A DNA stretch of 63,480 bases, filler included, from Stramenopiles sp. TOSAG23-2 (lineage: Eukaryota): assembly GCA_900128395.1 (NCBI GenBank). It is 9 parts of 9 records of this genome, joined end to end, with 100 filler letters (N's around TTAATTAATTAA, not from the genome) between each part and the next. Parts side by side here need not be neighbours in the genome. Positions count along the whole stretch, not along the records: positions 59,848 to 63,480 come from LT650474.1; 8 more parts are not named here. One strand, written 5' to 3'. Below are positions 23,041 through 63,480 of the stretch, in pieces. Both the position numbers and the translations under genes were made by a program. The notes under the pieces are model-generated. The model ran no database searches, was not told where the DNA came from, and worked only from the letters and a program-made list of their open reading frames with translations. Numbering within the stretch: the first letter of the stretch is position 1; each line of letters starts with the position of its first letter.

Positions 23041-26000
23041 TCAAAGTCTACTAACCGTACTTGTAAATGCAGCAGCTTCCGTAGTTGATGTCGTTTCATC
23101 AGTAAGCACGACACCTGATACATACCATACTTTATCAGCAACACATGTTAACATGACGCGTGTCCCAGGGTCTCCACCGGGACCATTGGTCCATACTTGA
23201 GGTGTTGTTCTAAAGTCATCTGACGTACTTGCACCCGCAACTTCCCCTTGGGTAGTACAAGCCGCTTTTGTATTTAATAAATAGCAAAAATGTTGTTGAT
23301 CAATTGTACACGTCTCTGTATATGTTTCTTCAAAATTGTTAGCCAAAAGTCCACTACAAGTACTTCCCCCATTAGAACAAGGATTGTCATCACAATTAGT
23401 TTAGCAAAAATGTTGTTGATCAATTGTACACGTCTCTGTATATGTTTCTTCAAAATTGTTAGCCAAAAGTCCACTACAAGTACTTCCCCCATTAGAACAA
23501 GGATTGTCATCACAATTAGTTACATTTCCATAAGTTGCTGTTGCCCACAATTTACATGTCCGTGTTGCATAAACGTTACTGCACAACCCATGCCCACGAA
23601 AATCAAGTTGTTGAGCACCAGCAACAGCTGCAGTGTAGAAGGAATCAGACAGAGTTACAGTTTGTACACCACCTATTATGGTATCAGTTCCCGAACAACG
23701 AACAAAATGCCCTACCTGCGTATCTACAAGAACATCGAATAGCACCAGCAACAGCTGCAGTGTAGAAGGAATCAGACAGAGTTACAGTTTGTACACCACC
23801 TATTATGGTATCAGTTCCCGAACAACGAACAAAATGCCCTACCTGCGTATCTACAAGAACATCGAATTCAAAAAATGCACCTAAAGTGCTAGTTGTACAT
23901 TCAGGCAAAGTAACGATAAATCCTGTAGCATTATTCAGATAAAATCGCTTCCCGGAATCGCTATTTACAAGTGTCCTATCTACGCCTATGGTTTCAACTT
24001 CATAATGATGGCCCGTCATCATATGTCCACTAATTTTAACTGATTCAACGTAGACATCACCATTGGTGGATGACACAGTCAAATCAGCACCATTCGCCCC
24101 TGTATGAGTAATTGCTTGTGCACTTGTTGATGACATTGTAATACCACCCCCTGCAAAAGCGATGTTTCCCGTGGCTGATAAGCCACCAGCAGTAATATTT
24201 AAACCTCCGGAAGTTACGGACAAGGCACCTGTAATTGTAATTTTCCCATCACCTCTGATGGTAAAGACTTCGGCAGGGGTACCGGCTATGGAACTATAGG
24301 CTTCCATTAAATTATATGTAGTAGCAGATCCTTGTGTTGCCTCTAATCGCAAAACAGATCCTGTAAATCCATCACTATCAGTCTGCGTTAATGTAACAAC
24401 ATCGACGTCCCCAGTAGCGCTGTTGGCAAAATACGCACCACCATCTTCAACAACAATGCCACCGCCAGTGTAAAAATTACCTGCTACACCAAGGCCGCCA
24501 GCAACAATGACAGAACCAGTGGTTGTTGATGTCGATGTAGTAGTATCTAATGAAACAACACCTTCTCCGACATATAATGTTTTTGCAATACCAGCTCCAC
24601 CAGTCGTTTGAAATGACCCAGTTGTTGTACTGGTACTATCTACTGTACTCGTTATAAAAACTTGACCTGTGCCATCGACTTTAAATTGCTGCGTTCCACC
24701 AGTGTTTACAAAATCACTACTAAACTTCAAGAAATTCCAATTAGTTGAACTACCACTATTTGTATCCAATTGCAAAATGTTTCCGGTATAAGCAGCGCTT
24801 ATCGCGCCTGCTTTCAACAGGGCATTATTTGAATCATCATAAACTTCTATCACACCATCATTTAATGTAATTCCACCTGATTCAAGCGTTATACCACCCT
24901 TTTCAATGTTTAAACCATTTGTCATTTTGACCAGACCATCTCCTTGGATGCTAAAAACAGTTGCTCCAGAAGCAGTTGCTTTTAAAAAATTAAAATCTGA
25001 TGAAGCCGATCTAGTAGTAGAAAGTTCCATCACATTACCTGTGTACGAATCACCTGTTGACGACACTATTAAAGCTGCGGCGGCATCATCAACTTCCTGC
25101 GTTGTTCCACGTGTATCACATGAAGAGCCATAATAGTTTGTACCACATGTGCACAACCCTGTTGCAAAATCACATACACCTCTATTTGAACAAGTTGCAT
25201 ATTCATTTGTCGCGGCAGTAGTAATTGCTATGGTACAACTGGGTGTTGTCGGCGATGACGTTATTAAACCACCTGTGCATGATATTTGAGACAATGCAGG
25301 TGAGCCAGTATGGCTATATATATTATTTTCAAATACCAGCTCAGGATATTTTGTAATTGTTACCGTCATTGTTGCTGCCTTTGTGGTACCATCAACATTA
25401 GAAACGACACAAGTTGCCGTTTCAACATTCAACAACGCCATTATCGCATTTGCACAAGCTGCATCTGCCAATGCACTACCGTCAGCCTCGAATGTTGTCT
25501 CATGACCAACAAATTTTAAAGTCCATAATCCGGCCAATGACCCAGATGCAACATTGGTAGTGATCGTAAATACCAAATTGGTTCCTGTCGTCAACGGATC
25601 ATCACCCTTCGGACATAGCCTATAAGTACAATCATTTCCACCCCAACCCCATTCACAAACACAGCCGTGAATAAAGTCTTTGTCCCAACCAGTGTATGCT
25701 GGTCCAAGTCCATCACCTATTGTCCCATCCGTTGTATCTGCTCCATGCCTAGTTCCAGCATCGTAAATGCTTGTGCAGGTACCGTGGCCATTGCATATAT
25801 TGTCGACACTTTCTTCCCCTTCCTCTGAATATGGAGGACATGTTAGCCTTTCACAAGTCGGACCAACAAATCCAATTTTGCAAACACAAAAACCAGTAAA
25901 CCTATCGCAAATTCCTGCATTGGAACACTCTGCCATATTATTATCAGTTGTTGTATGTGTACCAGCCGAAAATAATGCTATACCTCTTTTGCAATCGCGA

Positions 26001-26179
26001 AGGGAGCAGTCCCTTGCTCCATCCCAACCTTCGTAACAAGTGCAACTGTCAGTTGCATTACAACTTCCATGGCCACTGCACAGGTTTGGGCAATGTGAAG
26101 ATGACGGTAATACAAAATATGCCACTAACAATAGTACTATATAAAAAAATGACGACACAAAAACGTTTAAACCTGACAT
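23041..26179 (-). CDS. EGF/mastigoneme-like secreted protein, tandem copy 1 (interrupted by two short duplications)
   Basis: Nearly identical to 26881-29757 over its 5' part. The frame is broken by tandem duplications at 23614-23867 (period 127) and 23282-23520 (period 120); removing one copy of each restores a full ORF. Confidence 0.8.
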
Positions 26180-26880: not shown

Positions 26881-29757
26881 CTAACCCGTACTTGTAAATA
26901 CAGCAGCTTCCGTAGTTGATGTCGTTTCATCAGTACGCACGACACCTGATAAATACCATACTTTATCAGCAACACATGTTAACATGACTCGTGTCCCAGA
27001 ATCTCCACCGGGACCATTGGTCCATACTTGAGGTGTTGTTCTAAAGTCATCTGACGTACTTCTACCCGAAAGTACCCCTTGGGTAGTACAAGCCGCTTTT
27101 GTATTTAATAAATAGCAAAAATGTTGTTGATCAATTGTACACGTCTCTGTATATGTTTCTTCAAAATCTTTAGTAGTGCTACAAGCATCTCCCCCATTAG
27201 CACAAGGATCAGCAGAACAATCAGTTACATTTCCATAAGTCAATGCTGCATCCGATTTACATGTCCGTGTTGCATAAACGTTACTGCACAACCCATGCCC
27301 ACGAATATCAAGTTGTTTAGCACCAGCAACAGCTGCAGTGTAGAAGGAATCAGACAGAGTTACAGTTTGTACACCACCTACTATGGTATCACTTCCCGAA
27401 CAACGAACAAAATGCCCTACCTGCGTATCTACAAGAACATCGAATTCAAAAAATGCACCTAAAGTGCTAGTTGTACATTCAGGCAAAGTAACGATAAATC
27501 CTGTAGCATTATTCAGATAAAATCGCTTCCCGGAATCGCTATTTACAAGTGTCCTATCTACGCCTATGGTTTCAACTTCATAATGATGGCCCGTCATCAT
27601 ATGTCCACTAATTTTAACTGATTCAACGTAGACATCACCATTGGTGGATGACACAGTCAAATCAGCATCATTCGCCCCTGTATGAGTAATTGCTTGTGCA
27701 CTTGTTGATGACATTGTAATACCACCCCCTGCAAAAGCGATGTTTCCCGTGGCTGATAAGCCACCAGCAGTAATATTTAAACCTCCGGAAGTTACGGACA
27801 AGGCACCTGTAATTGTAATTTTCCCATCACCTCTGATGGTAAAGACTTCGGCAGGGGTACCGGCTATGGAACTATAGGCTTCCATTAAATTATATGTAGT
27901 AGCAGATCCTTGTGTTGCCTCTAATCGCAAAACAGATCCTGTAAATCCATCACTATCAGTCTGCGTTAATGTAACAACATCGACGTCCCCAGTAGCGCTG
28001 TTGGCAAAATACGCACCACCATCTTCAACAACAATGCCACCGCCAGTGTAAAAATTACCTGCTACACCAAGGCCGCCAGCAACAATGACAGAACCAGTGG
28101 TTGTTGATGTCGATGTAGTAGTATCTAATGAAACAACACCTTCTCCGACATATAATGTTTTTGCAATACCAGCTCCACCAGTCGTTTGAAATGACCCAGT
28201 TGTTGTACTGGTACTATCTACTGTACTCGTTATAAAAACTTGACCTGTGCCATCGACTTTAAATTGCTGCGTTCCACCAGTGTTTACAAAATCACTACTA
28301 AACTTCAAGAAATTCCAATTAGTTGAACTACCACTATTTGTATCCAATTGCAAAATGTTTCCGGTATAAGCAGCGCTTATCGCGCCTGCTTTCAACAGGG
28401 CATTATTTGAATCATCATAAACTTCTATCACACCATCATTTAATGTAATTCCACCTGATTCAAGCGTTATACCACCCTTTTCAATGTTTAAACCATTTGT
28501 CATTTTGACCAGACCATCTCCTTGGATGCTAAAAACAGTTGCTCCAGAAGCAGTTGCTTTTAAAAAATTAAAATCTGATGAAGCCGATCTAGTAGTAGAA
28601 AGTTCCATCACATTACCTGTGTACGAATCACCTGTTGACGACACTATTAAAGCTGCGGCGGCATCATCAACTTCCTGCGTTGTTCCACGTGTATCACATG
28701 AAGAGCCATAATAGTTTGTACCACATGTGCACAACCCTGTTGCAAAATCACATACACCTCTATTTGAACAAGTTGCATATTCATTTGTCGCGGCAGTAGT
28801 AATTGCTATGGTACAACTGGGTGTTGTCGGCGATGACGTTATTAAACCACCTGTGCATGATATTTGAGACAATGCAGGTGAGCCAGTATGGCTATATATA
28901 TTATTTTCAAATACCAGCTCAGGATATTTTGTAATTGTTACCGTCATTGTTGCTGCCTTTGTGGTACCATCAACATTAGAAACGACACAAGTTGCCGTTT
29001 CAACATTCAACAACGCCATTATCGCATTTGCACAAGCTGCATCTGCCAATGCACTACCGTCAGCCTCGAATGTTGTCTCATGACCAACAAATTTTAAAGT
29101 CCATAATCCGGCCAATGACCCAGATGCAACATTGGTAGTGATCGTAAATACCAAATTGGTTCCTGTCGTCAACGGATCATCACCCTTCGGACATAGCCTA
29201 TAAGTACAATCATTTCCACCCCAACCCCATTCACAAACACAGCCGTGAATAAAGTCTTTGTCCCAACCAGTGTATGCTGGTCCAAGTCCATCACCTATTG
29301 TCCCATCCGTTGTATCTGCTCCATGCCTAGTTCCAGCATCGTAAATGCTTGTGCAGGTACCGTGGCCATTGCATATATTGTCGACACTTTCTTCCCCTTC
29401 CTCTGAATATGGAGGACATGTTAGCCTTTCACAAGTCGGACCAACAAATCCAATTTTGCAAACACAAAAACCAGTAAACCTATCGCAAATTCCTGCATTG
29501 GAACACTCTGCCATATTATTATCAGTTGTTGTATGTGTACCAGCCGAAAATAATGCTATACCTCTTTTGCAATCGCGAAGGGAGCAGTCCCTTGCTCCAT
29601 CCCAACCTTCGTAACAAGTGCAACTGTCAGTTGCATTACAACTTCCATGGCCACTGCACAGGTTTGGGCAATGTGAAGATGACGGTAATACAAAATATGC
29701 CACTAACAATAGTACTATATAAAAAAATGACGACACAAAAACGTTTAAACCTGACAT
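26881..29757 (-). CDS. EGF/mastigoneme-like (Sig1/OCM-type) secreted protein with a fibre-like C-terminal half, tandem copy 2
   Basis: Signal peptide, CPNLCSGHGSC, ECSNAGICDR, CPKGDDPLT and TCSNRGVCD motifs typical of stramenopile mastigoneme/Sig proteins, followed by Gly/Thr-rich beta repeats. Confidence 0.85.
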   Translation of the reverse strand: MSGLNVFVSSFFYIVLLLVAYFVLPSSSHCPNLCSGHGSCNATDSCTCYEGWDGARDCSLRDCKRGIALFSAGTHTTTDNNMAECSNAGICDRFTGFCVCKIGFVGPTCERLTCPPYSEEGEESVDNICNGHGTCTSIYDAGTRHGADTTDGTIGDGLGPAYTGWDKDFIHGCVCEWGWGGNDCTYRLCPKGDDPLTTGTNLVFTITTNVASGSLAGLWTLKFVGHETTFEADGSALADAACANAIMALLNVETATCVVSNVDGTTKAATMTVTITKYPELVFENNIYSHTGSPALSQISCTGGLITSSPTTPSCTIAITTAATNEYATCSNRGVCDFATGLCTCGTNYYGSSCDTRGTTQEVDDAAAALIVSSTGDSYTGNVMELSTTRSASSDFNFLKATASGATVFSIQGDGLVKMTNGLNIEKGGITLESGGITLNDGVIEVYDDSNNALLKAGAISAAYTGNILQLDTNSGSSTNWNFLKFSSDFVNTGGTQQFKVDGTGQVFITSTVDSTSTTTGSFQTTGGAGIAKTLYVGEGVVSLDTTTSTSTTTGSVIVAGGLGVAGNFYTGGGIVVEDGGAYFANSATGDVDVVTLTQTDSDGFTGSVLRLEATQGSATTYNLMEAYSSIAGTPAEVFTIRGDGKITITGALSVTSGGLNITAGGLSATGNIAFAGGGITMSSTSAQAITHTGANDADLTVSSTNGDVYVESVKISGHMMTGHHYEVETIGVDRTLVNSDSGKRFYLNNATGFIVTLPECTTSTLGAFFEFDVLVDTQVGHFVRCSGSDTIVGGVQTVTLSDSFYTAAVAGAKQLDIRGHGLCSNVYATRTCKSDAALTYGNVTDCSADPCANGGDACSTTKDFEETYTETCTIDQQHFCYLLNTKAACTTQGVLSGRSTSDDFRTTPQVWTNGPGGDSGTRVMLTCVADKVWYLSGVVRTDETTSTTEAAVFTSTG

Positions 29758-29998: not shown

Positions 29999-32000
29999 GA
30001 AGATGATGATGCTGAAGAAGAAGAAGAAGAATTCAACGGTCGCAAACTGAAAAGATGCGGGAAAAAGTGTCAAAAAAACAAAAGAAAAGAGCAGAATGCT
30101 AAGAAAAAGAAAAAGAGAATTGAACAAAAGGAAAAGAAAAAGAGAATTGAACAAAAGGAAAAGGAAGAACAGAAGCAAAAGAGAATTGAACACAATGAAA
30201 AGGAAGAACAGAAGAAAAAGAGAATTGAACACAATGAAAAGGAAACGCAAAAGAGAATTGAACACAATGAAAAGGAAGAACAGAAGGAAAAGAGAATTGG
30301 ACAAAAGGAAGAACAGAAGGAAAAGAGAATTGAACACAATGAAAAGGAAAAAGAAAAGAGAATTCAACAAAAGGAAAATGAAAAAGAAAAGAGAATTCAA
30401 CAAAAGGAAAATGAAAAGGAGCAAAATGAAAAGAACGTGGAAGAACAGAGAATAAAATATCTTGAAAATTCCGCATCTAAAGTAGACCTTGGTATACAGG
30501 TGAAAGAATATATTGATGACAAATTGGATTCATTGAAATCTTACGATAAATATGTATGTGACCATAGTGGTTATGACAATCAATCACCATTATGCTGGAA
30601 TAAACATGGTAACCAGATTCATTGAAATCTTACGATAAATATGTATGTGACCATAGTGGTTATGACAATCAATCACCATTATGCTGGAATAAACATGGTA
30701 ACCATTGGGGTGAAGACAACGACCGCGATGGAAAAACTTGTGTATCCCCACATGGTTGTTGGTTGTTACGTACACCAGGCTTTACACTTAATAATGAATA
30801 TAAGGAAGATAGTAATGTTAGAACAGTTGAAGATTTTAAGAAAAATGTCTTGAGCAAATGGAATCTTAGTAATAAGATGAAAGAAGAATTGGAGGAAAAA
30901 TTAATGCCCATGGTGCTGAATGAAGGCGCTTCAAAAATTTTTGGAGACCATGTATTTGTGGAGCCAAAAAAAGGTGAAGGGGAGTGGTTCTTGGAAATTA
31001 TATTTGTACATAGTGAAATGTTCAGAATCAAGAAAGTAGTATATTTGAAACTTCATAGTAAAGGCTGGTTGTTGAAACCAAGAGCATGTGCATATGCCAA
31101 TAATGGTGGCAATCGATATTGTTGGAAACGCGGCTATAAACAAGATGAAATTGACATCATTACAAAAACGTTGGAATTAAAAGCTTTTGAGGCCGTGAGA
31201 CATGTTGCACCAACAAAAGGCGGGCCATTGCCATGTAAAGACGAATTTAATTGTTTTTGTTATCAGGAAAAAAACAAAGGTAAAGGAATTCCATCAAATT
31301 GCCTGGATGCTATGAAACATTATTTTACTACGGGTCGTCCACACAGAGGTTATGATGGAACATGTTGTTTGAAAGGTGCAAAGATTGTTTTTGTTATCAG
31401 GAAAAAAACAAAGGTAAAGGAATTCCATCAAATTGCCTGGATGCTATGAAACATTATTTTACTACGGGTCGTCCACACAGAGGTTATGATGGAACATGTT
31501 GTTTGAAAGGTGCAAAGAAGGAAAAAGTAAATAATAAAGGCATCACGGCAGCAATTTATGACGATGGATTCAGTGGACAGCAATGTAATCCATCAAATTA
31601 TAAAAGATATAGTTTTGATGATAATGAAATTACCGTTACGGAGGGTTGCTCTGCTACATTTATTTGCAATGGAGCTCCTGTAACTTGCAATTCGGTAATC
31701 AGTCCAAAAGAAGGGTCGAGGGGGGGTTATGGGGGGTCCTATGTTGAATGTGCAAGAAAATGTAATGCGCCCAATATTCCGAGCTATTATGATGACAGGA
31801 GGAGAAGAAGATTGGGAAGCAGAAGATTAGATAGTTATGCCACAGATTCTCCATCTAGAATGTGTTCTGAACCTAGGGATATTGATAGAAGGAGAAGACT
31901 TCAAGAAGATTCCGGGAGGAGACAACTCATGTCTCATGGTGATTGTCTAGATTGTATAAGAAAATGCTATGGGATTATTAATACATGCAAATGTAATTAA
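29999..32000 (+). CDS. Cys-rich, probably secreted protein with a charged repeat and RRL motifs; 5'-truncated and split by two duplications
   Basis: ORFs 30437, 30622 and 31362 join into one frame once the tandem duplications at 30527-30704 (period 89) and 31250-31517 (period 134) are collapsed. The C-terminus has RRRLG/RRLDS/RRRLQ motifs. Confidence 0.65.
30105..30430 (+). repeat. Coding minisatellite (KRIEHNEKEEQK-type repeats)
   Basis: Recurrent AAAAGAGAATTGAACA unit of variable length. Confidence 0.85.
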
Positions 32001-41246: not shown

Positions 41247-41280
41247 ATCTATAGCGCGTGTTCGATCCCCGCCTGAGGCA
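41247..41280 (+). pseudogene. Orphan tRNA 3' half (tRNA-Phe-like relic)
   Basis: ATCTATAG-CGCGTG-TTCGATC-CCCGC-CTGAGGC-A gives a T-arm with B-box (one mismatch), acceptor strand and A73, with a T-run about 20 nt downstream. No complementary 5' half (GCCTCAG) was seen nearby. Confidence 0.55.
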
Positions 41281-41418
41281 TGTGCATAACAGCATATCTT
41301 ATTTTTTTTTGTCTCTTGCACACTCTGACTTCATCTGTTTGCTACATGTATGTGTTTGATTAAAAAAATTGAAATCAATCATATCAGCATTTTTTGAAGT
41401 GTTCATTTTTGTTTTATT

Positions 41419-45138: not shown

Positions 45139-45141
<3 letters not shown>

Positions 45142-47451
45142 GGAAATAAAAATAGTCGAAAAAAAAAGAAATCCTCCTCCTCAAGTACAATAAAAAAATC
45201 AATAAATTATATTAAACAACAAAAAATTGGTGAGGGTAAATATGGGCGTGTATTTCGTGGTTTACGAGAAACAGATCAATCTGAAGTTGCTATGAAATAT
45301 TTGGACTTTTCAAAATTACCAGAAGGAAAGATAAAAACACAAGTTGAACGTACATTAAGTGAATTAGATGCTATGAAACGTTTAGGGAAGGATGATAATA
45401 TTGTTGAATTATTTGATACAAGACTTGAAAATACATCTATCATTATTGTAATGGAATTTTGTCCAAATGGTAATTTCCGAGATATACTGCGCAAAGAAGC
45501 GCCTATTGGCGATATTAATAAAATACACCAATATTTGTTTGACATCGTATCAGGTTTAAGAGCCCTACGAGTTGCTTCCATCGTTCATCGAGATTTAAAA
45601 CCTGAAAATATCTTATTAGCCAAAAATGGAAAATTAAAATTATGTGATTTTGGTATGGCACGTCAATTGGATGGATATAATGCAAACCGAATATGCGGAA
45701 CATTATTGTACATAGCACCAGAAGTTATCAAACGGAAAAAATATTCCCATACGATTGATTTGTGGGCATTAGGTATAATTTTGTATGAAATGTTGGTAAA
45801 CGATCACCCTTTCTTATCGCGTGATATCGGCATTGATTCATTTGCTCAACCAAAAGAAATTGCAAGAATTAATTTAACATTAATTAAAAGCAAAAGGCAA
45901 TCAAATGGTGAGACGAAAATTACATTTCCTGTACTGCCAGATGAAGTTCTTAATGCAAGAAATTTGATTTGTCGATTGTTACAAGAAAAACCTGAAAATC
46001 GCCTTCAATATAATAAATTATTTAAAGCATTAAATATCCCAGAGATTGATCCAAATGAAACGGAACGTTCGTTTACAATAGATAATAATGATATGGATGA
46101 GGAGAAAGGTGATAATAATAATAATAACAGCAACAACGACAACAACAACAACAACAATGGCAACAATCGAAATTCATCTCATGCTGCTGCTGATAAACGT
46201 AAGGAAAGAATTAAACGTAGTATGACATTAGATCGTGGAGGTAAATTGGCAAGGGTGGTAGATACGTCAAAAATGGCATCATGGGGTCCACAATGCACAT
46301 ATCTTCAATCAATGAAAATATCAGATATTGAACAAGGTCGGCCTGAATTAATAACATTAAATGCTGATATTACCTGTCAAGATGCAATTGCAATTTTACA
46401 TGAAAATCATATATCCTCCGCTCCTGTCATCGATTCAAATGGGAATACCAATGGTTTTGTAGACAATGCAGATTTAGTAACACATTTATTAGATGCAATG
46501 CAAAGCAAAGAACAAAATTTATTACGTGGTTTTATAGTACCAAGTAAAAGAATAGTAAATTATGGAAAATCAAAAGCATTTGAAAATGCACCATTTTCTG
46601 TATCTGAAGAAAGCAATTTATTATCAGCTATGTTACATATGGGTAGTGGTGTTAAACGATTTGCGGTGACAGATAAAAATAATGAATTTGTCACTGTTAT
46701 TAGCCAAAGTTCCATCAATTCGTATTTATTGAAAAAAATAAAGCAATTACAATCCAACAATGGTAGTAATAATAATAATAATAATAATAATATTGATAAT
46801 GATGATGATAATAATAATAACAATAAAAGCATTATTTCTAAAAATGATATGATGATACAAATGAAAGAAAATGCATTACAAAAAATGGGTGCTTCTCTAT
46901 TACAAATTATTGCAATGTCAATTGAAAAATTAAATTTAATCCCATCAGACCGCGAAATGATTGTATCAGAATCAAATTTAAATGCCGCAAATGCGTTTTT
47001 ACGTATATCTGAAAACAACATATCTGCCATACCGATTGTTAATGAGAAAGGAAAAATGGTAAATGTACTTTCAACAAGTGATATTGCTTTATTGGCATTT
47101 CTTGATTTAGAAAACGGCAGAAATAAAACGGATTTAAATGAAAATAGTCCAGCACAAGAAGCAGCAACAAAAATACAAGTAGCCTTCGATGCATTAAATA
47201 GGATGGATATGTCTGTGTCTGAATATATTGATACTGTAAAAACACATAAAAATCGAGATAAAAATTTACCGAAAAAAGGTAAATTAATTACGGCTACAAG
47301 AAAAACAACATTATTAGAAGTAATGGAACAAATGGATAAATATCGTGTACATCGTGTATTTGTTGTCGATTCATATTTAAAACCAATTGGTGTTATTTCA
47401 CACACGGATGTGTTGAATACAATTATTACGACTAATCCTGAGAATTTTTAA
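45139..47451 (+). CDS. Ser/Thr protein kinase fused to four CBS domains
   Basis: GEGKYG, VAMK, HRDLKPEN, DFG and YIAPE kinase motifs. C-terminal CBS motifs ISSAPV, VKRFAV, ISAIPIV and VHRVFVVD..GVISHTDVL. The MGNKNS N-terminus may be myristoylated. Confidence 0.9.
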
Positions 47452-48886: not shown

Positions 48887-51800
48887 TTACCCTCTAAACC
48901 CAGCAAATGCTTTACCAGCAGTTTTTTTTGCCAATCGCTGAATTAATGGTTCATATCGTACTCGCCAATTAATTAAATAACTTCTTGTTTCAGATGGTTT
49001 AATCAAATCATGTACTCCAAAGGATTCACTTCCAGGAAATGGACTGTGGGGCGTAGTGTGTATGATGAAAGAGCGATGTGTTAGAGAGGGTGTCTTTTTA
49101 TCGGTTATGGGAAGTAGAATTTAGATACTTACTTCAATCCTTTTGAAAATTGCGCCTCGAGCTCCTTTCGTCTTTGTTCCGGATTTGGATGATTAGCAAG
49201 TTCACGCTTATATGCCACTGCTATTCCACTTTCAACAGGTAAAGTACCTGTTTCTACGCTAGGCCATGATAAAACATAATTGCTTGGAGCAAAATGCGCA
49301 GCAGCCGCTACACCATATGATTTTCTGCATAACAATGTACACCATGGATAAGGATACGTTTGTGATGTTAATACAGCTTTTGTACCACGTCTAATTGTAC
49401 CAGCTTTTTCAGCTTCGATACCAATCATAAACCCGGGTTCATCTACAAGGGCTATAATGGGTACATGAAATGTTTGACAAACTTCCATGAAACGTACTAC
49501 TTTGTCCGATGCATCAGCTGTCATTGCACCACCTAATACTCTGTTGTCATTTGCATATATCCCTGTTACATGTCCATTAATTCTAGCAAATCCTGTGATT
49601 TGAGTTCCACCGAAGGCCACGGTCCCAATTTCAAAAAATGAGCCATGATCTACTATCAAACTTATTAATTGTCGCATATCGTATGTTTGTCTACGATCAC
49701 GTGGTATGATTGTATTTAATACCATTGCTCGTTTCTCCTCCATGTCCACGTCCGTTTTATATGGGATGTATGGTGGCGTGCTATGTACATTCGATGGTAA
49801 ATAACTTAAAAATGTTCTTATTTGACGCATAGCATCTTCTTCATCTTCAGCAAAATTATCAACAATACCTGAGGTATCATGAATTTGTATACCTCCAAGT
49901 TCTTCCTTGGTCGTCTCATAACCTAATGCACGAGTCACAACAGTTGCACCAGCAGTCAAAACATATGCAGATTTGACCATGACAGCAAAATGAGATGCAA
50001 CAAATCGAGATGCAGGTAAACCAGCTACACTGCCCATAGCAGCGGTACATACAGGTATAGTTTGTAAACATTTTGCAACTGTACTAAATCTTGGAGTGCC
50101 ATAAACAGTAGGTCCAGCACTTTTTGCACCTTTTTTACGACGATTATCTGCACCTGCAGGCGATCCACCCGCACCTTCATGTAATCGAACTAATGGCTGT
50201 TCCAACTCCAATGCTAATGTTTCAGTATATATACTTTTCCGTAATCCAGCTAAATTTGGACTTCCGCCAGACATAGTAAAGTCTTCCCCACATGCTATAA
50301 TTGGTCTACCATCTACAAAACCAGTACCAATTATAAAATTACCTGGGGTAAAAGAAATTAATTTCCCATTTTCATCTTTTTCACTACCACCTGCAATCCT
50401 TCCAATTTCATGAAAGGAATTTTGATCGAGCAATATATTGATGCGTTCTCTGACTGTTAAACGTCCTTTTGCATGATGTGCAGCTATTTTTTCTTCACCA
50501 CTACCAGCCAATGCAAATTCTCTTCGTTTTTCAATTTCATTCATGTAATCGGACCATCCTTCATCTTCTTCCTCTGCCATTCCTTCACCAACTGATTGTA
50601 AGCGTATAATAGCAATTTCATCACCAGGATTAATATTTACGCCTTCTTTAAAATCTTCTTGTAATGCAACAATGACACCTTCTTTTGGTGAGCGTATAAC
50701 AGTCTCCATTTTCATACTAACAACTGAAATCAAACGATCTCCTTCTTTGACACCATCACCAACTGCAACATGATATTTAATAACATTTCCTGAAATTTCC
50801 ATTACAACCGCAAAATCACCCGGTGTTTTATCATTAAATGCTATTAATTTTGCATTTGCATTATCTTCATCGTTTATGCCCCCATCTGAAAATTTACTAG
50901 ATTGTTCATCTAATAAGGTCAATATACTATTTTTGTTGCTACTGCTTTGATTAGACATGATATCTGGAAATTCTGTTAAAAACGTCGTTCGTGCTTCACC
51001 ATTTTGAAAGACACTATTATCCGTAATTTTAATCAAAGATTCTAAATTAGTTGGTAATCCACTGACATGAAATTCTTCCAATGCAGCTTTTAATTTAGCA
51101 ACTACTTGATCAAATGTTTTGTTATTGTTATTATTAAACACGACTAGCTTTGCAAATAATGGATCATAAAATGGTGGTGGTTTTAATCCTAAATAACCAC
51201 ATCCATCAACACGGATACCAATTCCACTTGGTTGATTGTAACCTTTTATCGTTCCTTCACCAGTTGCAACTACACGTGCCTGTATTGCAAACCCATTTGC
51301 TTGGATATTGCTATTCATTAATCCTAACGTTTCTAATGATTTACCAGCTGCAATTAAAAATTGTGTTTCTACTAAATCAATCCCAGTAACTTGCTCCGTA
51401 ACAGTATGTTCTACTTGGATACGAGGATTACATTCAATGAAATAATATTCATTTTTTTCTGGCGAGTATAAAAATTCGACAGTACCAGCATTTTCATACT
51501 TTGCTGCTTTTACAAGTTTAATAGCATCTGCATACATATTTTTACGTGTTTGTTTAGACAAATTAGGCGCAGGAGCAATTTCCATTACTTTTTGATTGCG
51601 TAATTGTACGGAACAATCTCGTTCAAATAAATGTATCGTATTTCCTTTTGAATCTGCTAATATTTGTATTTCAATATGCCTAGGCCGTTGTACATATTGT
51701 TCAACAAACATATCCCCATTTCCAAATGCATTTAATGCTTCTTTTTGACAAGATTCAAATGCTGGTATAATATCATCTGCATTATCAACAATACGCATAC

Positions 51801-58888: not shown

Positions 58889-59747
58889 TTTATATTTGCT
58901 TAAAACAACGCGTTGCTAGATTTATTCCTTATACTCAAAGCTATTGCTTTCCATTGCGTTTCATCAAAATATTTAATTCAATGTTCGTGATCAATTTCTT
59001 CTTATTCAATGCATTATCCATAGGCATATTACTGTATCGTTTATAAAATGTTTAATAATAATAAATATATCTTAATAATGATGTGCTTATGTACATAATA
59101 TAAATAGTGCTGGAGTTAGCCAGGTTAGAGTGGTGGTGGTGCTTATCGACTAATTATAATAATAATTTAAATTATTATTTATGATTTATTATAATAAAAG
59201 TAATAAAACCTGGCAACATACTTAAACTTATTATTACTATTATACTTGCCTATCAAAGCATCACAAAAAGTAAATCTAAATCTAAATTAAATCTTTAAAA
59301 GTCTGTCGAAATTTTGATGGGATGAAAGTGGTCTGGTGTCTGGTGGTCAGCCAGGTCAGCGAATTATAATTAATAGAATGTTCTAGTTCTATTTCTAATA
59401 TTACCAAGTATAAATTAAAATAGCAGTGCAATACCTGGTATTTGGTATTCCTTAATACTTAATAGATTGTTAGTGGATTTCAAAACTTAAGTACTACGTA
59501 ATTTAGTATACAGAGTATACTTATATTTGATATTAATAAGAGAGATATTGGATATTACAACAAATCGGATATTCTTAGTATATTCTATCAAAATAACTAT
59601 ATTTGGCTATTTTGGGATTTTTTGTAATACAATACCTCTCTATCAAATATATGCACATATATTAGTACACTAAATTAGTAACTTAAATTAAACCAGTCTA
59701 GTAAGCATGGTAAGAAGCAATCTGGCAATCCAGCAATACCTGCTGTA

Positions 59748-59847: not shown

Positions 59848-59896
59848 ATGATAACGAAGAATTAATAAAACGGTATATATATATATACCGTATAAA

Positions 59897-61360
59897 ATGT
59901 TTTTTGATCCAAGCACATTAGGATGGATATCAATTGCAATATCAACATTATTCACGTTGTTCCCATATTTTACCTCTAATTTATTAAATACAACATTACC
60001 AAAACCAACAGGAAAATATATTGTTGGATCATTTCTCACTCGAAGTAATATAGGGAACAAAAGTTTGATCAGATATTTTTATCCAACATCTAAAGTTGGA
60101 AATGGTGGTGGTAGTAGTGATAGTATACCAGAAAATGGTAAGTGGTTGCCAAGTTTTATCTATTACAAGGGATATGCACGTTTTTTAGGTTTTGCTGATA
60201 ATTCATTTTTGTTGTATATAATGAGAAGTTTAATATATGTATGTGGTCGTTGGATTGATCAAAAAGAGGAGAATTTACATATATATCATGATGACGACGA
60301 CGACAGGAAATATCCTGTTTTAATTTTTTCCCACGGAATGGGTGGTTCACAATCAATGTATTCTATCATATGCACGGAAATGGCATCTAGAGGATTTATT
60401 GTCATTGTCCCAGAACATACAGATGGTTCAGCAAGTTGTACAATTGATTCAAATGGTAAAACTATTTTTGCAGAGTTTGAAAGTGATCAAAATTTTTTGT
60501 TGGAACGAAGGGATATTTTAGGTACAGATGATCGTGACGCAATACGAAATGATAAGGCATCTCGTGAATATATGATAAATTGGAGAAATAAGCAAAGTCA
60601 AATACGTGTTGAAGATGTTTTCCAAGCCTTGTCCTTTACATGTGAACATGAAATATTAAAACAATATATTGATAAAAATAATGTAAATATTATGGGACAT
60701 TCTTTCGGTGGAACAAGTGTGTTAGGGGCAATTGCGCGGACTGGTGGTGTAACAACGTATAAAAATGACACTATTATTCATCGATTTATCTCTGCGATTG
60801 TTTTAGATGGATGGATGTGGCCAATTGTTGGCGATGATGAAAATAGTTATTTTATTGATGAGAAATTTGGTGGAAATAATGAGGAGAGGAACAACAGTTT
60901 AGTGAAACAAAATACTCCAATTTTATTTATAGATGCACATACATTTATTGATAATTTAGTTTGGTATTCTACGAAAATAGAAATTGCACAACGATACAAA
61001 ACACATCATGGTGAGAATAATAGTGATGTCATGTTATTGAATTTAAAACATAGTGCACATTTTACTTTTTCAGATGTTTTAGTACTGGGTGGAAAAGCAT
61101 ATCCTATTTTAAATCAATATAGATCAAGGCCACAAACGTTAAAAAAAAAAGTAAATGATGAAGAAGAAGAAAAAGAAGAAGGTATTCCAACGCAAGAAGA
61201 ATTATTGTTTAGTATAATGAATTTATCATATGATTTTATGCAACAGTATCATAATGGTGGTGGTGGTGGTGGTAGTGATGATACTTGGAGAAATAATATT
61301 GATTACAAGTTGTATAAAGTAATAAGCGATTCACGACAAGTTGGAAGTGGAAAGCTTTGA
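59897..61360 (+). CDS. Platelet-activating factor acetylhydrolase (PAFAH2/PLA2G7-like)
   Basis: LPKPTGKYIVG, KYPVLIFSHGMGG..EMASRGFIV..EHTDGSA, GHSFGG, LDGWMWP and HFTFSD. Confidence 0.9.
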   Translation: MFFDPSTLGWISIAISTLFTLFPYFTSNLLNTTLPKPTGKYIVGSFLTRSNIGNKSLIRYFYPTSKVGNGGGSSDSIPENGKWLPSFIYYKGYARFLGFADNSFLLYIMRSLIYVCGRWIDQKEENLHIYHDDDDDRKYPVLIFSHGMGGSQSMYSIICTEMASRGFIVIVPEHTDGSASCTIDSNGKTIFAEFESDQNFLLERRDILGTDDRDAIRNDKASREYMINWRNKQSQIRVEDVFQALSFTCEHEILKQYIDKNNVNIMGHSFGGTSVLGAIARTGGVTTYKNDTIIHRFISAIVLDGWMWPIVGDDENSYFIDEKFGGNNEERNNSLVKQNTPILFIDAHTFIDNLVWYSTKIEIAQRYKTHHGENNSDVMLLNLKHSAHFTFSDVLVLGGKAYPILNQYRSRPQTLKKKVNDEEEEKEEGIPTQEELLFSIMNLSYDFMQQYHNGGGGGGSDDTWRNNIDYKLYKVISDSRQVGSGKL

Positions 61361-61551
61361 AATGGGAGATCTGGGAGATGTTGTGTTTTTACTTTAAATT
61401 ATTTATATTATAAATTTTTATCAAGCGAGTTAAGAAAGGAAGGATAAAAACCTACTCATGCTTGTAGGGTATTACATATTTTGCAGAGGTGCATTTAGAG
61501 CTTTACTATATATAGTAGGATAGCATAATTATTACTTCGTACTTGAGATTG

Positions 61552-61636
61552 AGTATTGAGCACAGTATATGTATTTACTTAAGCACGGGAAGACGGGAAG
61601 TAAAATATTATTTTATAACACTTAAGATTTTAACCA
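61552..61636 (+). repeat. Dispersed 3'-flank element, copy 3 (with insertions)
   Basis: AGTATTGAGC..TTACTTAAGCACGGGAAG..TAAAATATTATTTTATAACACTTAAGATTTTAACCA. Confidence 0.7.
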
Positions 61637-61790
61637 TCATATACACGGATCTCATATATATAATGCATATCATACACATATGATATCTCTCATGTTAAAA
61701 AATTCAAGTGTCATGTATGATACATCTCATTTAAATATCAAATGCAGACAACTCAGGGGGGGCAAGGGCAAAAAAAAAAGCAGAGGGGGG

Positions 61791-61800
61791 CAAAAAGAAA
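61791..61800 (-). terminator. Pol III-type oligo-T terminator of the tRNA-Pro gene
   Basis: The minus strand reads TTTCTTTTTG right after the discriminator base, and a longer T-run follows. Confidence 0.7.
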
Positions 61801-61941
61801 GGGCCGCACGGGGAATCGCTGTTTTTTTTAACGTTTATTTGTTAGAGAATTGATCTACATTTTTTATACTTGTTAGATAAGACTTACAACCCCGGACCAC
61901 TCGCACCCAAAGCGAGTATCATACCACTAGACCACGCGGCC
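61801..61941 (-). tRNA. trnP-TGG: tRNA-Pro(UGG) with a 69-nt GT-AG intron in the T-loop
   Basis: Exon 1 (61941-61888) is GGCCGCGTGGTCTAGTGGTATGATACTCGCTTTGGGTGCGAGTGGTCCGGGGTT and exon 2 (61818-61801) is CGATTCCCCGTGCGGCCC. Joined they give a 72-nt cloverleaf with paired acceptor, anticodon (CTCGC/GCGAG, TGG) and T stems (CGGGG/CCCCG, loop TTCGATT). Confidence 0.93.
61819..61887 (-). other. Spliceosomal-type intron inside the tRNA gene (between positions 55 and 56)
   Basis: GTAAGTCTTATCTAACA..TTCTCTAACAAATAAACGTTAAAAAAAACAG. The boundaries are fixed by the tRNA sequence and cannot slide. Confidence 0.85.
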
Positions 61942-62322
61942 TCCAATTGGAGGTTGCAGAAGATTTTTTAATTTTTTCTGCGTGTCATACATTGTTACAA
62001 AAAGTGGAAAAAAAGTATATATATACAAATTATAAATTTTCTCATGGCAATACCACCATAACATAGACACAGCAGGTATATTAAACCCTATTTTAAACAT
62101 TAGGAAGCGATCATTTCTTGGTTACAAATGCACAAATATACGTTATTATTATTAATATATATATATCTCTCATTGGAAAGAAAAAGGTATATATCCATAT
62201 ATACAGCTATATCGAGATAGATCCAATCCATTTTATCCAGCAACCTTTTTTTTATTTTTAATTATTTTGACATCTATAAACACACAGTCTCATCATCCCT
62301 ATCTATACATATTCAACCACTC

Positions 62323-63450
62323 ATGTCATATGAAAAACCAATACGTAAACCACAAGTTCCACCTGGATTAGACGAGTTTGAACCAAATAGATTACATGCT
62401 GGTTTAAATGATTTACAAGCAGCAAAAGGTGCACATAGGTTAGTATATACACATCCTTCAGAAGATGTTGATAAATTAAATAGTACAGATCGTGTACGAC
62501 GTAATAAAGTTGCACGGGAACATGGACGTTTGCCAGCATTGACAATAAAAAAAGAATTTAATAACAATGGTTTACAAGAAGCTGATCCATTGTCATCCTT
62601 CGTTACTGCACAACCTATTAAACGTTCATGGATGAATGCAAAAGGGGAAGAATATATATTACAAACTTCTATTAATGATAATGAAAGTAGACGTGTATTT
62701 CCAATACCACGTAAAAATATAAATAAGCGTTTTAAAGAAAAATTGCAATTAGAACAATACACAATAGAACAAAAAGAAATAAGTATGAATGAAAAAAATG
62801 AAATAAATGATAATATTGTAAAAGAAATAACAAATGATTATTCCATCGATAATATTAATAAACATCGTTTTATAGATGGAGATGAGAATGGTAGTACTGA
62901 ATTTCTTGTAAATGATGTTGTATTATCAAAATGGGGGAAAACATGGATGATGGCAAAAATAATAGAATTAGGAAACGATAAAATAAAAATTAATTATTTT
63001 GGTAAAAACAAGGAAGACGACAGATGGGTCGATGATAGTAATGATAAATTGAAAAAGCAAGTATTAATATTAGATCGACATAAAGCAGAAGAACGACGTG
63101 GTGCATTTCCAAAATTAGGCGATGGTGTATTAGTTCGAGTCGTACCTGCAAAAGATGCAAATATATACACAGCATTTGGAACTGGTTTATTAGGTACATG
63201 TATTAAATGTTTACCACAAAATGATTGTTCTGTAGTAAAAATCGAACCAAATTTATTATTAAAAGAAGGATTTATTGGTACCTTTGCAAATGGATGGTTG
63301 AGTATACGTTATAAAGATCATTTTGCCCAAGAAAAATGTAATTTTATTCATTCCACTATTCGTTGTTTGAAGGAGGAAGTAGAAGAAGAGGAAATTGTTG
63401 ATCCAGAGGGAAAAACGGAGAAGAAAGAAAAAGAGGTTAAAACGAAGTAA
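62323..63450 (+). CDS. Hypothetical protein with a Tudor/chromo-barrel-like domain
   Basis: FLVNDVVLSKWGKTWMMAKIIEL..IKINYFG..DDRWVD resembles a Tudor-knot/Agenet module. Confidence 0.6.
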   Translation: MSYEKPIRKPQVPPGLDEFEPNRLHAGLNDLQAAKGAHRLVYTHPSEDVDKLNSTDRVRRNKVAREHGRLPALTIKKEFNNNGLQEADPLSSFVTAQPIKRSWMNAKGEEYILQTSINDNESRRVFPIPRKNINKRFKEKLQLEQYTIEQKEISMNEKNEINDNIVKEITNDYSIDNINKHRFIDGDENGSTEFLVNDVVLSKWGKTWMMAKIIELGNDKIKINYFGKNKEDDRWVDDSNDKLKKQVLILDRHKAEERRGAFPKLGDGVLVRVVPAKDANIYTAFGTGLLGTCIKCLPQNDCSVVKIEPNLLLKEGFIGTFANGWLSIRYKDHFAQEKCNFIHSTIRCLKEEVEEEEIVDPEGKTEKKEKEVKTK

Positions 63451-63480
63451 CACACAACAAATAAAATGCCGTGTCTGGTT

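What the first reader, a model, noticed from the sequence alone, without database searches (positions are those of the whole stretch)
61801..61941. tRNA-Pro gene interrupted by a spliceosomal-type intron in the T-loop/B-box
Seen: removing 61819-61887 gives a flawless 72-nt tRNA-Pro(UGG) followed by an oligo-T terminator. The insert lies between U55 and C56, and the tRNA sequence fixes its ends with no sliding and no target-site duplication. Those ends are exactly GTAAGT..CAG, with a CTCTAAC branch point about 22 nt upstream of the AG. These are the same donor, branch and acceptor signals as the mRNA intron at 49044-49132. A bulge-helix-bulge cannot form, because exon GGGG would have to pair with intron AAAC. 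Established: nuclear tRNA introns are cut by the TSEN endonuclease, at 37/38 or at BHB motifs in non-canonical positions. Spliceosomal introns are known in some fungal U6, snoRNA and rRNA genes, but I know of none in a tRNA. The intron also splits the B-box (GGTTCGANNCC), the TFIIIC-binding internal promoter. Inference: this lineage may splice tRNA precursors with the spliceosome and transcribe them without an intact B-box or by Pol II. Unmutated exons suggest function or a very recent insertion. Standard tRNA finders could easily miss such genes.
Basis: partly seen in the sequence, partly recalled or inferred. Interest (0 to 1): 0.95.

Follow-up and report, generated by a model that had tools for sequence, protein, structure and literature searches.

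The report
tRNA-Pro gene split by spliceosome-type intron
A proline tRNA gene of an uncultured marine protist is interrupted in its T-loop by a 69-base insert that carries the full signals of an mRNA-type intron, which has not been reported for a tRNA gene in the papers searched, but whether it is ever spliced could not be tested.

Summary
On the minus strand, 61941-61888 plus 61818-61801 give a flawless 72-nt tRNA-Pro(UGG). They are separated by a 69-nt insert between T55 and C56, and only one excision gives that product.

The insert starts GTAAGT, ends CAG, and has TCTCTAAC 23 nt before the end. That 8-mer occurs only twice in both strands of the window. The other copy is the branch site of the one well-supported mRNA intron, 49044-49132.

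A bulge-helix-bulge is impossible and the insert is unstructured. It is not repeated in the window. It holds a B-box-like GATCAATTC (about 0.01 expected by chance), as recalled for the fission-yeast U6 intron.

Function was not shown:
- No whole genome is held.
- None of the 29 contig pieces listed bridges either junction, in DNA or RNA.
- 0 of 22 metagenome loci with the same exon-1 21-mer carry an insert.
- Seven literature searches found no spliceosomal intron in a tRNA gene.

My reading is a real spliceosome-type intron, probably acquired by reverse splicing. It is about as likely to be spliced and functional (about 0.45) as to be a young dead copy (about 0.35).

The parts
61888..61941 (-). 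tRNA-Pro(UGG) exon 1. It covers tRNA positions 1-55: acceptor 5' strand, D arm, anticodon arm with TGG, variable loop, T-stem 5' strand and T54 T55.
   Evidence: Rfam gives a sub-threshold tRNA match of 23.5 bits.
61924..61934 (-). A box, TGGTCTAGTGG (tRNA positions 8-18), intact.
   Evidence: Read. The A-box consensus is recalled.
61819..61887 (-). 69-nt spliceosome-type intron between T55 and C56. Composition is A35 T18 C9 G7, with no TTTT on the sense strand.
61882..61887 (-). 5' splice site GTAAGT.
   Evidence: GTAAGT occurs 11 times in both strands of the window.
61841..61848 (-). Branch-site motif TCTCTAAC, its branch A 23 nt before the 3' end.
   Evidence: this is one of only 2 copies in both strands. 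The other is in the mRNA intron 49044-49132.
61847..61855 (-). B-box-like GATCAATTC inside the intron. It matches GWTCRANNC, with A at the position of T54 as in initiator tRNA.
   Evidence: 22 matches in 126,960 positions, so about 0.011 are expected in the intron. The consensus and the initiator comparison are recalled.
61819..61821 (-). 3' splice site CAG, the first AG downstream of the branch motif.
   Evidence: Read.
61801..61818 (-). tRNA exon 2: C56 to C73, that is the rest of the T loop, the T-stem 3' strand, the acceptor 3' strand and the discriminator C.
61792..61800 (-). TTTCTTTTT, a Pol III terminator-like run directly after the discriminator. A T10 run follows at 61779..61770.
   Evidence: Read.
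61963..61977 (-). AAAAAATTAAAAAAT, an A/T-rich TATA-like block at -36 to -22 from tRNA position 1. It is a possible upstream promoter element (inference).
   Evidence: Read. The analogy is to the C. merolae passages read.
61940..61953 (.). A perfect 14-nt palindrome, CCTCCAATTGGAGG, spanning the tRNA start. Its role is unknown.
49044..49132 (-). Comparator: an 89-nt mRNA intron (phase 2) in the biotin carboxylase / carboxyltransferase gene, GTAAGT...TCTCTAAC...CACAG.

Best explanation
This is a genuine nuclear tRNA-Pro(UGG) gene that has acquired a spliceosomal (U2-type, GT-AG) intron between T55 and C56.

Origin (inferred): an excised intron was reverse-spliced into a tRNA or pre-tRNA. The product was then reverse-transcribed and recombined into the gene. 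This route gives exact GT..AG borders and no target-site duplication.

Expression (inferred):
- RNA polymerase III starts from the intact A box. It is helped by the B-box-like GATCAATTC inside the intron and/or the A/T-rich block at about -30.
- It reads through the intron, which has no T4 run.
- It stops at TTTCTTTTT.

Splicing (inferred): the T stem closes the intron into a loop, which brings the splice sites together. The spliceosome removes the intron as a lariat and restores the TTCGATT T loop.

What is shown: the anatomy and the match to this genome's splice signals. What is inferred: transcription, splicing and use in translation.
For: - The joined exons give a perfect 72-nt cloverleaf. 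They are 72 of 72 identical to an uninterrupted tRNA-Pro(UGG) at metagenome locus L005.
- Only one excision frame exists, and it coincides with GT..AG.
- GTAAGT is rare, with 11 copies in both strands.
- TCTCTAAC occurs only twice in both strands: here, and in the homology-supported mRNA intron 49044-49132.
- The third CTCTAAC of the window lies in a candidate 5'UTR intron, 59221..59110.
- The intron is unstructured, -2.0 kcal/mol with z +0.23. It cannot form a BHB.
- A B-box-like motif lies inside the intron, with about 0.011 expected by chance.
- The sense strand has an A-over-T excess, P = 0.0145. The tract between branch site and 3' splice site is A-rich rather than T-rich. This fits avoidance of Pol III terminators.
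- The terminator lies directly after the discriminator base.
- Precedents: spliceosomal introns are known in U6 (the sole S. pombe copy, removed by the spliceosome), U2, U5 and U1 snRNA genes and in rRNA genes, with reverse splicing proposed (PMC5855946, section 14 read).
- Reverse splicing is discussed as a route to intron transposition (PMC11146597, passages read).
Against: - No RNA evidence. No joint 61818->61888 appears in three metatranscriptome runs. These runs are contigs, two of them poly(A)-selected, so the test had little power.
- The insert was not confirmed in an independent DNA sample. The one listed DNA contig that reaches it (X1 record 7) stops matching exactly at 61818, with 6 unaligned letters left. 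It may be an allele without the insert or with a different one.
- 0 of 22 metagenome loci with the same exon-1 21-mer have an insert.
- There is no second example in the window.
- The canonical B box, including C56, is split.
- There is no polypyrimidine tract.
- The exon ends TT|C are not a typical protosplice site.
- The lack of TTTT is itself uninformative (P = 0.42).
- The B-box-like motif was looked for after the fact.
- tRNA genes are usually multi-copy, so a dead copy would be tolerated.
Confidence: 0.45

Rival explanations
1. A young, dead tRNA gene copy. The same reverse-splicing or intron-transposition event put a real intron into one of several tRNA-Pro(UGG) genes. The split B box silences the gene, or the Pol III transcript is not spliced. 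The exons look perfect only because the event is recent.
For: - There is no RNA evidence of splicing.
- The DNA contig X1 record 7, from a roughly 99%-alike strain, stops matching exactly at the exon 2/intron border. This fits an insert that is polymorphic.
- Uninterrupted tRNA-Pro(UGG) genes of identical mature sequence exist in nature (L005, 72 of 72).
- It is a single case in 63 kb.
- No report of a spliceosomal tRNA intron turned up in seven literature searches.
Against: - There is not one substitution in 72 exon bases (against L005), and the 5' splice site, branch motif and 3' splice site all match the consensus. A dead copy keeps that state only briefly.
- The B-box-like motif and the A-over-T skew of the intron are not expected for a random Pol II intron.
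- L005 looks like a giant-virus tRNA cluster (GC 0.29, 5 tRNAs). It is not this organism, so no intact copy has been shown in this genome.
Confidence: 0.35
2. The gene is functional but is made by RNA polymerase II. The tRNA is cut out of a longer spliced non-coding transcript that starts upstream, so no B box is needed.
For: - Spliceosomal introns normally sit in Pol II transcripts (PMC12530127, introduction passages read).
- An RNA-library contig (X15 record 16, 426 nt) joins 379 nt of other upstream sequence to the first 46 nt of a near-identical tRNA-Pro. This is from another locus or a relative, and DNA carry-over is not excluded.
Against: - The A box, the terminator run directly after the discriminator and the absence of T4 in the intron all fit Pol III.
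- Both neighbouring genes are on the other strand.
Confidence: 0.07
3. An ectopic tRNA intron removed by a divergent tRNA-splicing endonuclease or another protein enzyme without a BHB. This is what has been suggested for nucleomorph tRNA introns. The splice-signal look would then be coincidence.
For: - T-loop introns exist in red-algal and nucleomorph tRNA genes (PMC13578239, passages read).
- Most ectopic introns of the Guillardia theta nucleomorph are said not to form a BHB (PMC3728597, discussion passage read).
Against: - The central helix would pair exon GGGG with intron AAAC, which gives at most one pair (read).
- The intron has no stable structure.
- The coincidence of GTAAGT, TCTCTAAC and CAG at the exact borders is of the order of 1e-6 or less. 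This is my own estimate from the motif counts.
Confidence: 0.04
4. An artefact of assembly or amplification. On this reading the insert does not exist in the organism's genome.
For: - The window comes from environmental data.
- No listed contig of an independent sample bridges either junction.
Against: A chimera or misjoin would not place a 69-nt piece with a consensus 5' splice site, this genome's own branch motif and a CAG exactly where their removal restores a perfect tRNA.
Confidence: 0.05

Closest known systems
mRNA-type (spliceosomal) introns in non-coding RNA genes: S. pombe U6 snRNA (a Pol III gene), fungal U6/U2/U5/U1 genes and rRNA genes
   Same: - A short intron with canonical 5' splice site, branch site and 3' splice site lies inside a conserved structural RNA gene that is not an mRNA.
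- There is no target-site duplication.
- Reverse splicing is the proposed origin (PMC5855946 section 14).
- U6 shows that a Pol III transcript can be spliced by the spliceosome.
- A B-box match inside the Schizosaccharomyces U6 intron is known to me only from the title of Frendewey et al. 1990 in that review's reference list. The paper itself is not held.
   Different: - The host here is a tRNA, which is not a spliceosome component and is not near its active site.
- The intron splits the internal promoter and the T loop.
- No expression data exist.
- No tRNA case appears in that review or in my searches.
Ectopic (non-37/38) tRNA introns of Cyanidioschyzon merolae, Chondrus crispus and nucleomorphs
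   Same: - An intron lies in the T loop of a nuclear tRNA gene and interrupts the B box.
- The size is similar (11-69 bp in C. merolae).
- An upstream TATA-like element plus a T stretch is proposed to drive transcription without intact A/B boxes (PMC3728597; PMC13578239).
   Different: - Those introns are defined by BHB or BHB-like motifs and are cut by the tRNA-splicing endonuclease.
- This one cannot form the motif, and it carries GTAAGT / TCTCTAAC / CAG instead.
Canonical 37/38 tRNA introns (TSEN-dependent)
   Same: Both interrupt a nuclear tRNA gene and must be removed to give a functional tRNA.
   Different: The position differs (55/56, not 37/38). There is no anticodon-intron pairing. 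The signals are spliceosomal.
Introner elements and transposon-derived introns of marine protists
   Same: The setting is a marine protist with a recently gained, short intron that has strong signals.
   Different: No second copy was found in the window or in the 111 fetched loci (only the 22 metagenome loci had been fetched when that search ran). There are no terminal inverted repeats and no target-site duplication (read). The host genome could not be searched.

Membership tests
Spliceosomal U2-type GT-AG intron | A 5' splice site that matches the consensus (GTAAGT/GTATGT). | tested here: met
   GTAAGT lies at 61887..61882. It occurs only 11 times in both strands of the window.
Spliceosomal U2-type GT-AG intron | A branch-site motif 10-50 nt upstream of the 3' splice site, matching the organism's own introns. 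| tested here: met
   TCTCTAAC lies 23 nt before the end. It is one of 2 copies in the window; the other is in the mRNA intron 49044-49132.
Spliceosomal U2-type GT-AG intron | A 3' splice site YAG that is the first AG after the branch point. | tested here: met
   CAG lies at 61821..61819. No AG lies between the branch motif and it (read).
Spliceosomal U2-type GT-AG intron | A polypyrimidine tract between branch point and 3' splice site. | tested here: not met
   The tract is AAATAAACGTTAAAAAAAA, which is A-rich. This feature is dispensable in intron-poor, yeast-like systems (recalled).
Spliceosomal U2-type GT-AG intron | Removed by the spliceosome through a lariat. | not testable with these tools
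   Only contigs of public runs could be laid, and no joint was seen.
Spliceosomal U2-type GT-AG intron | Lies in an RNA polymerase II transcript. | tested here: inconclusive
   The host has tRNA-gene anatomy: an A box and an oligo-T terminator. The polymerase is unknown. U6 shows that exceptions exist.
Endonuclease-type (BHB) tRNA intron | Canonical position 37/38, or a bulge-helix-bulge with each cut in a 3-nt bulge flanking a 4-bp helix. | tested here: not met
   The position is 55/56. The helix would be exon GGGG against intron AAAC. The intron's MFE is -2.0 kcal/mol, z +0.23.
Eukaryotic nuclear tRNA gene (Pol III type 2) | A cloverleaf with conserved D and T loops and an anticodon. | tested here: met
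   Met only after the insert is removed: ARAGORN calls tRNA-Pro(tgg), 72 nt. As it stands, no finder calls it.
Eukaryotic nuclear tRNA gene (Pol III type 2) | Intact internal A and B boxes. | tested here: not met
   The A box is intact. The B box GGTTCGATTCC is split after GGTT. A B-box-like GATCAATTC lies in the intron.
Eukaryotic nuclear tRNA gene (Pol III type 2) | An oligo-T terminator close to the 3' end, and none inside. | tested here: met
   TTTCTTTTT lies at 61800..61792. There is no TTTT in the exons or the intron.
Introner or transposon-derived intron family | Many near-identical copies, with a target-site duplication or terminal repeats. | tested here: inconclusive
   No other copy was found in the 63-kb window or in the fetched loci. 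No TSD or TIR is visible. The genome is not available.
Group I / group II intron in a tRNA gene | A ribozyme-sized, structured intron. | tested here: not met
   The insert is 69 nt and unstructured. There is no Rfam intron match.

The most novel reading that the evidence does not exclude
In this uncultured marine protist lineage, the spliceosome is a regular tRNA-maturation enzyme. Several tRNA genes would carry GT-AG introns outside the anticodon loop. These genes would be invisible to standard tRNA finders. They would be transcribed by Pol III from A boxes plus intronic or upstream elements and spliced through lariats. This would be the first link between the two supposedly unrelated nuclear intron systems.
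Probability: 0.12. Interest if true: 0.95.

Novelty: new variant of a known kind. Interest (0 to 1): 0.72.

Why it matters
Textbooks and current reviews treat spliceosomal introns and tRNA introns as unrelated systems with separate substrates (PMC12530127, introduction passages read). A spliced tRNA of this kind would matter in four ways:
- It would extend the short list of non-coding RNA genes with spliceosomal introns (U6, U2, U5, U1, rRNA) to tRNA.
- It would give a second natural case of a Pol III transcript processed by the spliceosome.
- It would give a clean, datable example of intron gain without a transposon signature.
- It would show that tRNA finders can miss genes, so 'missing' isoacceptors in protist genomes need a split-aware search.

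If it is a dead copy, it is still a rare snapshot of an intron landing in an abundant structured RNA.

Tried and rejected
- Whole genome: none is held. So I could make no count of tRNA-Pro copies, no search for TSEN subunits and no genome-wide split-tRNA scan.

I repeated it on the N-free part 59848-63480.
  - No joint 61818->61888 appears in any of the 4 runs.
  - None of the 29 listed pieces bridges a junction. 141 pieces and 51 loose ends were not shown.
  - Poly(A) RNA contigs of X16 and X18 cover both flanking genes, but no listed piece covers the tRNA.
  - Depth arithmetic on the bin 61800-61921 could not settle whether X1 covers the insert.

- Metagenome scan with the exon-1 21-mer: 22 loci, and none has an insert after GGGGTT. 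17 continue CGATTCC, 4 continue CAAATCC and 1 (L003) is odd. 13 of the 22 carry two or more further ARAGORN-called tRNAs and look like giant-virus tRNA clusters. None is the window's locus, so the scan says nothing about relatives of this organism.

- Viral-contig scans:
  - The junction 14-mer gave 89 matches, 0 with tRNA context.
  - The intron 5' 19-mer gave 1 match, inside what looks like coding sequence (no ORF or family search was run on it) and extending to 22 nt. I judge it chance.
  - The intron 3' 20-mer gave 0 matches.

- Introner idea: no second copy in the window or the loci.

- Pfam on the 51-aa last exon of the carboxylase alone: no hit. The intron rests on the truncated domain plus the open frame.

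- A T-arm-like sequence at about 41250-41283 was tested as a second split tRNA. No matching 5' acceptor strand with a D arm lies within about 950 nt upstream, and there is no Rfam match.

- Lack of TTTT in the intron is not significant (P = 0.42).

- Earlier notes of this scan: nothing relevant.

- Frendewey et al. 1990 is not held.

- Supplementary files were not consulted. The supplements of the C. merolae paper may list exact T-loop intron positions.

Full report
WHAT IS THERE

The feature lies on the minus strand.
- 61941..61888 reads GGCCGCG...GGGGTT. These 54 nt are tRNA positions 1-55.
- 61887..61819 is a 69-nt insert.
- 61818..61801 reads CGATTCCCCGTGCGGCCC.
- TTTCTTTTT follows directly, and a T10 run lies 13 nt further on.

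ARAGORN finds no tRNA in the window, even with intron options. Rfam finds nothing at gathering score. With E-value thresholds Rfam gives only a 23.5-bit match on exon 1. This is the sole tRNA-like signal in 63 kb.

A script joined the exons by coordinates, and ARAGORN then called a 72-nt tRNA-Pro(tgg) with every stem paired. Only one 69-nt excision gives this product, so the borders are fixed by the tRNA. They fall exactly on GT...AG. No direct repeat flanks the insert.

IS IT A SPLICEOSOMAL-TYPE INTRON?

The window is gene-dense and intron-poor: 20 ORFs of 250 aa or more. I could support only one mRNA intron.
- That intron is 49044-49132 on the minus strand, in a biotin carboxylase / carboxyltransferase gene.
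- The Pfam Carboxyl_trans match stops at profile position 441 of 493 at the ORF's last residues.
- After GTAAGT...CACAG, 51 more codons are open in the right phase.
- Pfam on that 51-aa piece alone gave no hit.

This intron and the tRNA insert share GTAAGT, TCTCTAAC and CAG. Motif counts over both strands of the window:
- GTAAGT occurs 11 times.
- GTAAGT..CTAAC..YAG occurs 4 times. The two plus-strand hits lie antisense inside a long minus-strand ORF.
- TCTCTAAC occurs exactly twice, in these two introns.
- CTCTAAC occurs three times. The third copy is in a candidate 5'UTR intron at 59221..59110.

In the insert the first AG after the branch motif is the terminal CAG. I take the match to this genome's own rare splice signals, at borders dictated independently by the tRNA, as far beyond chance.

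WHAT IT IS NOT

- Not a BHB intron. A bulge-helix-bulge with cuts at these borders needs exon GGGG paired with intron AAAC, which gives one pair at most. The insert alone folds at -2.0 kcal/mol, z +0.23. In the whole precursor no bulged helix appears.
- Not a ribozyme-type intron. It is too small and too unstructured for group I or II.
- Not shown to be an introner. It is not repeated in the window or in the fetched loci, and it has no terminal repeats or duplication. With no genome to search, the introner idea is only weakly tested.

HOW IT COULD BE EXPRESSED

- The A box is intact. The B box is cut after GGTT.
- Inside the intron lies GATCAATTC. It fits the GWTCRANNC form of the B box (consensus recalled). 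Such motifs occur 22 times in 126,960 positions, so about 0.011 are expected in the intron.
- An A/T-rich block lies at -36 to -22.
- The sense strand of the intron has 35 A against 18 T (P = 0.0145), and no TTTT. The absence of TTTT alone is not significant (P = 0.42; 38% of AT-rich 69-mers in the window lack it).
- The tract before the 3' splice site is A-rich, not pyrimidine-rich.

These points fit a Pol III transcript that has to be read through to the terminator. Two precedents are relevant:
- The S. pombe U6 gene is a Pol III gene whose single copy carries a spliceosomal intron. The title of Frendewey et al. 1990 says that Schizosaccharomyces U6 introns hold a B-box match. I saw only the title; the paper is not held.
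- In C. merolae, introns split the A/B boxes, and an upstream TATA-like element plus a T stretch is proposed to drive transcription.

ORIGIN

Exact GT..AG borders without a target duplication fit reverse splicing into an RNA, followed by reverse transcription and recombination. This is the origin proposed for snRNA-gene introns and discussed for intron transposition. It is inference.

WHAT COULD NOT BE SHOWN

The organism
- It is an uncultured marine eukaryote. The runs that hold the stretch are seawater and marine metagenomes and metatranscriptomes.
- Its genes are cellular: SGT1, UTP21, SNARE and topoisomerase VI-A.
- The best named relatives of its topoisomerase VI-A are oomycetes and a labyrinthulid at 57-65% identity. 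Plants score about the same, so the lineage is unresolved.

Laid contigs
- I laid contigs of one DNA run and three RNA runs. No 61818->61888 joint appears in any run.
- None of the 29 listed pieces bridges a junction, and 141 pieces were not shown.
- The one listed DNA contig that reaches the insert (X1 record 7: 61582-61818, 1 other letter, 3 gaps) stops matching exactly at the exon 2/intron border, with 6 letters left.
  - It may be an insert-free allele that breaks in the repeated tRNA sequence.
  - It may be a variant intron end.
  - I cannot tell which.

Metagenome scan
- The scan with the exon-1 21-mer returned 22 loci, none with an insert.
- 13 of the 22 carry two or more further ARAGORN-called tRNAs and look like giant-virus tRNA clusters. 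None is this locus.
- L005 carries a tRNA-Pro identical at 72 of 72 positions to the joined exons. This shows that the exon sequence is that of a working tRNA.

Literature
- Seven full-text searches found no spliceosomal intron in a tRNA gene.
- A 2018 U6 review lists U6, U2, U5, U1 and rRNA as hosts (section 14 read).
- A 2026 review of tRNA gene repertoires contains no word starting 'spliceosom' in its main text.

VERDICT

- The insert is a bona fide spliceosome-type intron by every sequence criterion except a pyrimidine tract.
- Splicing and function are untested.
- I put about 0.45 on a working, Pol III-made, spliceosome-spliced tRNA gene. I put about 0.35 on a young dead copy. The small remainder goes to a Pol II host transcript, an unknown protein enzyme, or an artefact.
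- It is best filed as a new variant of the known kind 'mRNA-type intron in a non-coding RNA gene', with a tRNA as a new host.

Noticed in passing
window 61438-61536: A short stretch in the intergenic DNA downstream of the tRNA has enormous depth in all four laid runs. In X1 the bin mean is 6424 and the depth reaches 24,381 at one place. In the RNA runs it is 175, 38 and 26. Every contig runs on into unlike sequence before 61438. Something very abundant in seawater shares about 40-100 nt with this spot. It is unexplained.
   Followed up: partly
window 41250-41310 (+): An orphan T-arm-like sequence, GCGCGTGTTCGATCCCCGCCTGAGGCA, with a good B box. CTATAG precedes it and a T9 run follows about 25 nt later. 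No matching 5' half was found within about 950 nt, and ARAGORN and Rfam are negative. It may be a tRNA 3'-half relic or a B-box-only (TFIIIC) site.
   Followed up: partly
Read-laying table 5c, at window 61941/61801 (run X1): A DNA contig of depth 13.3 joins the tRNA 3' end, through 30 other letters, to a tRNA 5' start. So tandem (or permuted) tRNA-Pro genes 30 nt apart, with no T run between them, exist in some genome of that sample. I guess this is a giant-virus-type cluster.
   Followed up: no
Read laying record 16 (run X15), at window 61896-61942: A 426-nt contig from an RNA library carries 379 nt of different upstream sequence followed by the first 46 nt of a near-identical tRNA-Pro. Its last upstream bases resemble the window's (TGCAACCT.CCA). 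It may be a paralogue or a relative with a long leader, or it may be DNA carry-over.
   Followed up: no
L005 (metagenome locus), tRNA at about 483-554: A low-GC (0.29) contig with a cluster of 5 tRNAs carries a tRNA-Pro(UGG) identical at 72 of 72 positions to the window's joined exons. If L005 is a giant virus, this may hint at a virus-host link.
   Followed up: partly
window 59110-59221 (-): A candidate 5'UTR intron of the 1949-aa gene: GTATGT...CTCTAAC...CAG, 112 nt. It holds the third and last CTCTAAC of the window. It is unverified.
   Followed up: partly
window 23684-26179 and 26881-29757 (-): Two tandem EGF/teneurin-like genes have identical Pfam domain coordinates, and identical flanking sequence about 3578 nt apart. 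This looks like a recent tandem duplication.
   Followed up: no
window 30125-30335 (-): The motif TGTGTTCAATTCTCT recurs six times at spacings of 27-72 nt. This is a tandem-repeat region in an intergenic gap.
   Followed up: no
window 45139-47451 (+): A protein kinase domain is fused to three CBS domains in one 770-aa ORF. This is an unusual architecture.
   Followed up: no
window, pairs of 44-nt N runs from 7423 to 59847: Pairs of 44-nt N runs, each pair separated by 12 letters, recur about every 7.47 kb. They look like masks, not assembly gaps. They prevented laying reads on a stretch that would have included the control intron.
   Followed up: yes
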